Shown: positions 7,675 through 7,769 of the stretch, in pieces
How positions within the stretch are numbered: the first letter of the stretch is position 1
How the letters are laid out: every line of letters begins with the position of its first letter
Source of the DNA: Zootoca vivipara
Lineage: Eukaryota
Reading direction: 5' to 3'
NCBI RefSeq assembly: GCF_963506605.1
Contig: NC_083288.1
Coordinates: 44,516,001-44,580,000, forward strand
Length of the DNA stretch: 64,000 nt
Notes under the pieces: model-generated
Told to the model about the DNA's origin: nothing
Database searches by the model: none
Seen by the model: the letters and a program-made list of their open reading frames with translations, nothing else
Made by a program: the position numbers and the translations under genes

Positions 7675-7769
7675 AAATAAAAAAATTCCTTCAGTAGCAC
7701 CTTAAAGACCAACTAAGTTTTTATTTTGGTATGAGCTTTCGTGTGCATGCACACTTCATCAGATACACA
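7675..7769 (-). mobile_element. Penelope-like element terminal fragment with hammerhead motif (7728-7768)
   Basis: Minus strand GTAT-CTGATGA-A-GTGTGCATGCACAC-GAAA-GCTC-ATAC...CTTAGTTGGTCTTTAAGGTGCTACTG; probable TSD CAAATCA. Confidence 0.75.

What the first reader, a model, noticed from the sequence alone, without database searches (positions are those of the whole stretch)
7675..7769. Dispersed minimal type-I hammerhead ribozymes in short Penelope-like insertions (5 insertions in 64 kb)
Seen: (G)GTAT-CTGA(A/T)GA-A-GTGTGCATGCACAC-GAAA-GCTC-ATAC(C) at 7728-7768(-), 48266-48306(-) and 63676-63715(-); mutated at 49245-49284(+); truncated at 40924-40949(-). It has stem I GTAT/ATAC, the CUGANGA and GAAA cores, a palindromic stem II, and a stem III reduced to the palindrome AGCT before the UC cleavage site. 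Each insertion is 87-212 bp with its own 6-13 bp direct repeat. Known: Penelope-like element termini carry minimal hammerheads whose short palindromic helix III favours dimeric cleavage. Inference: a high-copy, recently mobile ribozyme-bearing unit (extreme truncations or a non-autonomous retrozyme-like family).
Basis: partly seen in the sequence, partly recalled or inferred. Interest (0 to 1): 0.7.

Follow-up and report, generated by a model that had tools for sequence, protein, structure and literature searches.

The report
Penelope stubs starting at ribozyme edge
These five tiny insertions are short end-pieces of a very abundant, recently active Penelope-type jumping gene that carries a known minimal hammerhead motif, not a family of their own; such pieces start unusually often at the motif's first base, which likely marks where the element's RNA begins.

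Summary
In detail: five insertions of 87-212 bp with 6-13 bp target duplications. Three carry a core-intact minimal type-I hammerhead motif; the others are mutated, truncated or a second inverted arm. The 38-mer occurs 13,219 times exactly in this 1.44-Gb genome. It lies in the pseudo-LTR of a 3,030-bp tandem Penelope-like element with an intact 901-aa RT + Cys-linker + GIY-YIG frame. Hammerheads in such elements were described in 2014 (PMC4209133). The window copies are colinear pieces of this element, so a separate retrozyme family is not needed. One extra pattern: 31 of 96 sampled copies begin within 6 nt of stem I, against 1.9 expected. That edge lies about 31 nt after a conserved TATA-like box. 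None of 89 begins exactly at the predicted cut site. Likely the enzyme primes internally near the RNA's 5' end and runs off it. Cleavage and the start site are untested. This scan already noted the same pattern in this and other genomes.

The parts
7675..7769 (-). Insertion 1, 95-bp pseudo-LTR stub, short 3' end (no tail)
   Evidence: 98.9% to intact unit over 94 bp; 7-bp duplication 7668-7674 / 7770-7776
7729..7766 (-). Core-intact minimal type-I hammerhead motif; predicted cut between 7733 and 7732
   Evidence: positions; cleavage untested
28889..28917 (-). 29-bp remnant of the same element's 3' end, no hammerhead
   Evidence: blastn E=0.004, 89.7%; no duplication found
40863..40949 (-). Insertion 2, 87 bp; motif cut off inside stem II (40925-40949), lacks the 5' core
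   Evidence: 89.3% to unit; 6-bp duplication 40857-40862 / 40950-40955
48205..48310 (-). Insertion 3, 106 bp
   Evidence: 96.8% to unit; 8-bp duplication 48197-48204 / 48311-48318
48267..48304 (-). Core-intact minimal hammerhead motif; predicted cut between 48271 and 48270
   Evidence: cleavage untested
49231..49374 (+). Insertion 4, 144 bp, with tail; first 13 bp are a repeated piece of the motif's start; motif 49246-49283 has lost G12 and one stem I pair
   Evidence: 83.2% to unit; 13-bp duplication 49218-49230 / 49375-49387
63626..63837 (.). Insertion 5, 212 bp, head-to-head inverted pair
   Evidence: 12-bp duplication 63614-63625 / 63838-63849; arms 96% alike over 179 bp; folds as one long hairpin, -148 / -146 kcal/mol
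63677..63714 (-). Core-intact motif in the tail-less arm; predicted to be locked in the hairpin
   Evidence: pair probability of stems I and II 0.0 in context
63716..63749 (+). Second motif in the tailed arm; lacks the 5' strand of stem I and has one change at the base of stem II

Best explanation
The five insertions are short pseudo-LTR pieces of an autonomous, recently active Penelope-like retrotransposon with a Neptune/Nematis-type cysteine linker, likely made when its reverse transcriptase primed inside the element's RNA and likely ran off the RNA's 5' end at the hammerhead's first base. Shown: colinearity with the full element, target duplications, two 3'-end classes, a pile of 5' ends at stem I, and a conserved TATA-like box about 31 nt upstream. 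From the literature (Anolis Poseidon, PMC11167929): the GIY-YIG domain cuts AT-rich DNA and RT starts at two internal sites that define the optional tail. Inferred: transcription starts 0-3 nt before stem I; RT starting about 90 or 130 nt downstream copies the uncut hammerhead and stops at the RNA end, often leaving scrambled bits of the motif's start or an inverted second arm; other copies stop earlier or, on longer templates, further upstream. The stubs lack the TATA box and the frame, so they would be dead; a lone motif would cut poorly without a partner or the element's protein.
For: Full-length units: period 3,030 bp in 4 of 5 loci fetched (3,036 in one), 925-codon open frames, repeats 99.7-100% identical where aligned in register. 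The 901-aa protein has RVT_1 (E 3.8e-12) and GIY-YIG (E 5.9e-5) and a C-x4-C-x2-C linker at residues 761-769. All five insertions align to the unit's motif-plus-tail stretch. 3' ends of 96 copies: 55 at 38-61 nt and 39 at 86-102 nt past the motif, none between, 2 outside. 5' ends: 31 of 96 within 0-6 nt upstream of stem I against 1.9 expected from the rate at 7-100 nt; 34 of 83 independent clusters hold a copy of the 36 classed as short. In 89 copies chosen on a downstream anchor, 22 start between 5 nt inside and 6 nt upstream of stem I, and 0 start exactly at the predicted cut (1 one base off, 1 two bases off). A TATA-like 8-mer starts 31 nt before stem I in 26 of 34 long copies; -31/-30 is the optimal spacing (PMC1779604, abstract). 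In 36 long copies, non-majority letters: 5 of 396 at 11 core sites, 10 of 72 at the free sites N7/N17, 203 of 1224 upstream, 26 of 504 downstream.
Against: The start site was not observed: RNA reads gave no pile of starts at stem I or at the cut site, and about 90% ran on into unrelated sequence. Only 1 of 12 ORF-length copies that keep stem I begins there, against 32% of sampled copies (P=0.06 binomial, 0.10 Fisher); plain run-off does not by itself explain this. An extra G at the junction, expected from a cap, was not clear: 6 of 13 non-templated letters, P=0.24, several explained by inverted pieces. 5' ends are also frequent inside the motif (26 of 89 between 11 and 48 nt inside), so stalling at structure may add to the pile. 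One small variant had only short members (5 of 5). Both samples come from the first 5.2 Mb of one contig and partly overlap. Stems were as invariant as the core (14 of 900), so no compensatory change was seen.
Confidence: 0.7

Rival explanations
1. Ordinary 5' truncation only: RT falls off or folds back at the structured, partly palindromic motif, and the pile at stem I has nothing to do with the transcript's start.
For: 26 of 89 copies end inside the motif; 19 of 31 edge copies have an inverted or rearranged element piece as 5' flank; 5' truncation with an inverted copy is typical of these elements (PMC8557442, passages).
Against: The densest pile lies beyond the structure, at its far edge, and the rate drops about 16-fold right after it (0.046 vs 0.0028 per nt). 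12 of 31 edge copies show no inverted flank. The edge coincides with the TATA-predicted start.
Confidence: 0.18
2. A non-autonomous retrozyme- or SINE-like family: a 90-135 nt unit that is itself transcribed and copied by the Penelope enzyme.
For: Sharp length mode; one variant with only short members, 5 of 5; a 4-unit, 598-bp internally deleted tandem array exists elsewhere (L031); animal retrozymes are argued to derive from such elements (bioRxiv 10.64898/2026.07.22.740005, parts 1-3 of 5).
Against: The stubs are monomers or inverted pairs, lack the TATA box, and are colinear with the parent. Edge copies occur in at least four variants, three of which also have long members. Their ends vary by several bases.
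Confidence: 0.07
3. Ribozyme cleavage defines the copied template, so the stubs are reverse transcripts of cut RNA.
For: The core is conserved across variants; self-scission was proposed in PMC4209133.
Against: 0 of 89 5' ends lie exactly at the predicted cut and 55 of 89 cover the whole motif. In Anolis, unprocessed RNA was the main substrate and ribozyme mutants did not affect insertion in vitro (PMC11167929, part 2).
Confidence: 0.02
4. The edge is a 3' splice site, as in Drosophila virilis Penelope, where the intron ends at helix I; the stubs come from spliced RNA.
For: Several variants have a pyrimidine tract and an AG one base before stem I; precedent in PMC4209133 (part 2).
Against: The youngest variant, with intact frames, has no AG there (15 of 36 long copies have C at that place), yet copies of its type also start at the edge. 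No shared upstream exon appears at the junctions.
Confidence: 0.03

Closest known systems
Minimal type-I hammerheads of metazoan Penelope-like elements (Cervera and de la Pena 2014, PMC4209133; parts 1-2 of 4 read)
   Same: Long helix II, 4-bp helix I, a bulged base before helix II, G10.1-C11.1, palindromic helix III region; located in the pseudo-LTR; mostly single motifs of truncated copies, also pairs on opposite strands; reported for Neptune elements and for reptiles.
   Different: That paper stresses sequence variability within genomes; here one 38-mer has 13,219 exact copies. The parts read do not describe a pile of 5' ends at the motif's edge.
Neptune/Nematis-type EN+ Penelope-like elements (PMC8557442 and PMC3846280, passages)
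   Same: Single RT + C-terminal GIY-YIG frame, cysteine linker, partial tandems, inverted 5'-truncated copies, optional 30-40 nt tail, short target duplications; a putative TATA plus initiator in the pseudo-LTR was noted for rotifer Pen2a_Av.
   Different: Neptune versus Nematis was not resolved (no reference proteins at hand). Whether this family is already in Repbase or Dfam could not be checked.
Poseidon of Anolis carolinensis, PAc (Frangieh et al. 2024, PMC11167929; parts 1-2 of 4 read)
   Same: Two internal 3' ends about 35-40 nt apart, AT-rich targets, tandem arrangement, uncut RNA as the likely template.
   Different: PAc is of the Penelope/Poseidon clade and its frame starts within the hammerhead; here the ATG lies 137 nt after the first base of stem I, so the motif and both 3' ends are in the leader.
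Non-LTR retrozymes (bioRxiv 10.64898/2026.07.22.740005; parts 1-3 of 5 read)
   Same: Non-coding, type-I hammerhead, derived from pseudo-LTRs.
   Different: Defined there as tandem repeats with a motif in at least two consecutive units; the window copies are monomers or one inverted pair.

Membership tests
EN+ Penelope-like element | Single frame with RT and C-terminal GIY-YIG endonuclease | tested here: met
   In the parent unit L055; the window itself holds no coding part (tblastn no hit)
EN+ Penelope-like element | Tandem or partial-tandem units forming pseudo-LTRs | tested here: met
   5 of 5 loci fetched are tandem; 11 of 12 further ORF-length copies run upstream past the motif
EN+ Penelope-like element | Optional 30-40 nt tail (two 3' ends) | tested here: met
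   55 and 39 of 96 copies in two classes, none between; both classes in the window
EN+ Penelope-like element | Inverted 5'-truncated partner copies and short target duplications | tested here: met
   63626-63837; duplications of 6-13 bp
Neptune/Nematis clade | CX2-5CxxC linker between RT and EN | tested here: met
   Residues 761-769; feature defined in PMC8557442
Neptune clade | RT phylogeny with Neptune references | not testable with these tools
   No reference set of named elements; the PDB search gave no relative (1 unrelated hit at E 0.07)
Minimal type-I hammerhead | Core C3-A9, G12-A15.1, U16.1-H17 with helices I and II | tested here: met
   3 of the 6 motif remnants in the window; 47 of 55 sampled copies that cover the motif
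Minimal type-I hammerhead | Core more conserved than flanks, free positions variable | tested here: met
   1.3% core vs 13.9% N7/N17, 16.6% upstream, 5.2% downstream in 36 related copies; copies share descent, so this is not a count of independent events
Minimal type-I hammerhead | Compensatory changes in stems | tested here: inconclusive
   Stems nearly invariant, 14 of 900 letters
Minimal type-I hammerhead | Self-cleavage (as dimer or protein-assisted) | not testable with these tools
   Folding only: classical dimer -11.1, two monomers -12.0, stem-II duplex -29.0 kcal/mol
Non-LTR retrozyme | Tandem non-coding units, motif in at least two consecutive units | tested here: not met
   Window copies are single or inverted; L031 elsewhere would meet it
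Non-LTR retrozyme | Accumulation as circular RNA | not tested
   One search was laid on the parent unit only and is dominated by read-through of other copies

The most novel reading that the evidence does not exclude
The stubs are integrated strong-stop cDNAs. Transcription starts at the hammerhead's first base, RT primes 90-130 nt downstream, reaches the cap, and normally jumps to the repeat at the RNA's 3' end. That jump would rebuild the upstream TATA box and the partial tandems, as strand transfer does for LTR elements; the stubs, with scrambled bits of the motif's start at their junctions, are failed jumps. The hammerhead would then act as a self-decapping switch 34 nt from the cap and not as the cutter that defines the template. 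Tens of thousands of genomic copies would make this step of Penelope transposition testable from sequence alone.
Probability: 0.25. Interest if true: 0.65.

Novelty: new member of a known kind. Interest (0 to 1): 0.3.

Why it matters
As a motif it is ordinary: minimal hammerheads in Penelope pseudo-LTRs, in thousands of truncated copies, were published in 2014. The useful part is mechanistic. How these elements finish reverse transcription and form partial tandems is open, and so is what the hammerhead does. This genome holds a young family with intact frames and at least 37,423 end-pieces. Their 5' ends mark the likely RNA start and argue against cleavage defining the template. In six literature searches I found no description of this pile in the listings or in the parts I read; supplements and subscription papers, including Lunse et al. 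(not held), were not seen.

Tried and rejected
Rfam scan: no hammerhead family among 32 matches; the miRNA hits at 63.6-63.8 kb reflect the perfect hairpin. Other generic core matches in the window (8 of 13 lie outside this family) were not supported; the one at 61905-61933(-) has no UH site after the core and lies in the endonuclease frame of a LINE. An alternative cut site just upstream of stem I was considered and dropped by inspection: the arms do not pair. Cap-derived extra G: inconclusive. RNA holders: no listed holder is on record as RNA; two raw RNA runs with the same species label were laid on the parent unit: depth 2,000-3,200 over the motif and tail in one run against 10 or less in the frame, mostly read-through; the strand excess was not consistent between runs, so no orientation claim is made. 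Transcription of the window copies remains untested, and so does a genome-wide, base-by-base histogram of 5' ends. PDB search found no relative. Automated duplication calls in the sampled copies were noisy and are not used as counts. Rows dropped: 4 tandem units of L031 from the 100 places (n=96); 11 of the 100 places not included (7 minus-strand places and the same 4 tandem units; n=89); 3 of 20 ORF-length loci could not be anchored and 5 start inside or downstream of the motif.

Full report
Observation. The 38-nt motif is present at 7729-7766(-), 48267-48304(-) and 63677-63714(-) without mismatch and at 49246-49283(+) with three; none of 100 shuffles gave a match. A truncated copy ends at 40949(-), a second damaged copy lies at 63716-63749(+), and a 29-bp remnant at 28889-28917(-). 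The five insertions measure 95, 87, 106, 144 and 212 bp and are flanked by direct repeats of 7, 6, 8, 13 and 12 bp. In 400 random flank pairs, words of 6 or more arose 84 times, of 8 or more 9 times, of 12 or more never. Rfam has no model that scores the motif, and the monomer folds weakly.

Parent element. The exact motif occurs 13,219 times in the 1.44-Gb genome and a 23-nt anchor just downstream 37,423 times; the reversed-pattern controls gave 0. Longer copies run upstream without a break into a GIY-YIG frame. A protein search scored 150 of 1,807 candidates and listed many open frames of 925 codons. All five loci fetched to see them are tandem arrays, with a period of 3,030 bp in four and 3,036 bp in one. 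The 901-aa protein has RVT_1 and GIY-YIG domains and a C-x4-C-x2-C linker, which PMC8557442 and PMC3846280 (passages) give as the mark of Neptune/Nematis elements. The window copies are 83-99% identical to this unit and hold only its leader; the window has no coding piece.

Is the motif kept as a ribozyme? In 36 long copies chosen on the downstream anchor, the 11 core sites show 5 non-majority letters of 396 (3 at a CpG), the two free sites 10 of 72, the 34 nt upstream 203 of 1,224 and the 14 nt downstream 26 of 504. That fits selection on master copies, though the copies share descent and the stems show no compensatory change. Of 89 sampled copies 55 cover the motif and 47 of these have an intact core. 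Folding gives -11.1 kcal/mol for the classical double hammerhead, -12.0 for two monomers and -29.0 for a duplex through the self-complementary stem II; in context stem I pairs with probability 0.01 or less, and insertion 5 forms one long hairpin. PMC4209133 (parts 1-2) found no monomer cleavage and low dimer cleavage for a Schistosoma motif. PMC11167929 (parts 1-2) found the Anolis motif cut only with the element's protein and was not needed for insertion in vitro. The lone window copies are thus unlikely to cut much.

Ends of the copies. 3' ends fall in two classes, 55 and 39 of 96, with none between; this matches the two internal RT starts and optional tail reported for PAc. 5' ends are broad but have a sharp peak: 31 of 96 lie 0-6 nt upstream of stem I, where 1.9 are expected from the rate over the next 94 nt. 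These 96 form 83 clusters, 34 of which hold one of the 36 copies classed as short. In the 89-copy anchor sample, 26 start 11-48 nt inside, 22 start from 5 nt inside to 6 nt upstream, and none exactly at the predicted cut. The two samples overlap and come from the first 5.2 Mb of one contig. Junctions often carry inverted or repeated bits of the motif's first bases, as at 49231-49243.

What sets the edge? A TATA-like 8-mer begins 31 nt before stem I in 26 of 34 long copies, across variants whose spacer differs, and an initiator-like stretch lies just before stem I (consensus from the listing of PMC5287114). Positions -31 and -30 are optimal in mouse promoters (PMC1779604, abstract). A putative TATA plus initiator was noted in a rotifer pseudo-LTR, whereas D. 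virilis Penelope has a TATA-less internal promoter (PMC2377424, passages). I infer a start 0-3 nt before stem I and run-off of RT there. Against a simple version: only 1 of 12 ORF-length copies that keep stem I starts at the edge (P 0.06-0.10); an extra G is not significant (6 of 13, P=0.24); and RNA reads, about 90% read-through from scattered copies, show no pile of starts at the edge or at the cut.

Separate family? Edge-starting copies occur in at least four variants, three of which also have long members; one small variant had only short members, 5 of 5. The window copies are not tandem and lack the TATA box. They fail the working definition of non-LTR retrozymes in bioRxiv 10.64898/2026.07.22.740005 (parts 1-3), although an array elsewhere in the genome (L031) would meet it.

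Verdict. Real, correctly described, and a new member of a known kind: stubs of an active Neptune/Nematis-type element with a minimal hammerhead. I had reached the start-site reading before looking at the scan's notes; those notes record the same pile in this genome and in others, and they are unreviewed. Interest 0.3; the strong-stop and strand-transfer reading would deserve 0.65 and I give it 0.25.

Noticed in passing
L031:3320-5742 (G000:C1, about 2.777-2.780 Mb): Four 598-bp tandem units, 99.9% identical, of an internally deleted derivative (leader, first 216 nt of the unit joined to the last part of the frame), each with an intact motif. It fits the working definition of a non-LTR retrozyme and may be one in the making.
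   Followed up: partly
window 15002-17731(-): Uninterrupted 909-aa frame with zf-BED and a weak hAT dimerisation domain: an intact hAT transposase or a domesticated ZBED-like gene inside the histone/tRNA cluster.
   Followed up: partly
window 45-26779: Cluster of histone genes (H2A, three H2B-like, two H4-like frames; seven 3' stem-loop matches) mixed with six full tRNA genes.
   Followed up: partly
window 59023-62051(-): LINE with an endonuclease frame and a 653-aa RT frame.
   Followed up: no
window 51954-52985(-): Single-exon 343-aa rhodopsin-family receptor.
   Followed up: no
window 56975-57122: A 149-bp inverted repeat, 90% alike, unrelated to the Penelope stubs.
   Followed up: no
L058:525-8721: A palindromic insertion of about 8.2 kb with two intact 925-codon frames facing outward and five motifs.
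   Followed up: no
L076, L125 (motif 3' strand): A variant with U at position 17 and a mismatch in stem I, shared by two long copies; it may be a subfamily with a weakened ribozyme.
   Followed up: no
anchor sample L060-L148: One variant has 12 of 18 copies truncated inside the motif, against 6 of 54 in the commonest one; truncation profiles differ between subfamilies.
   Followed up: partly
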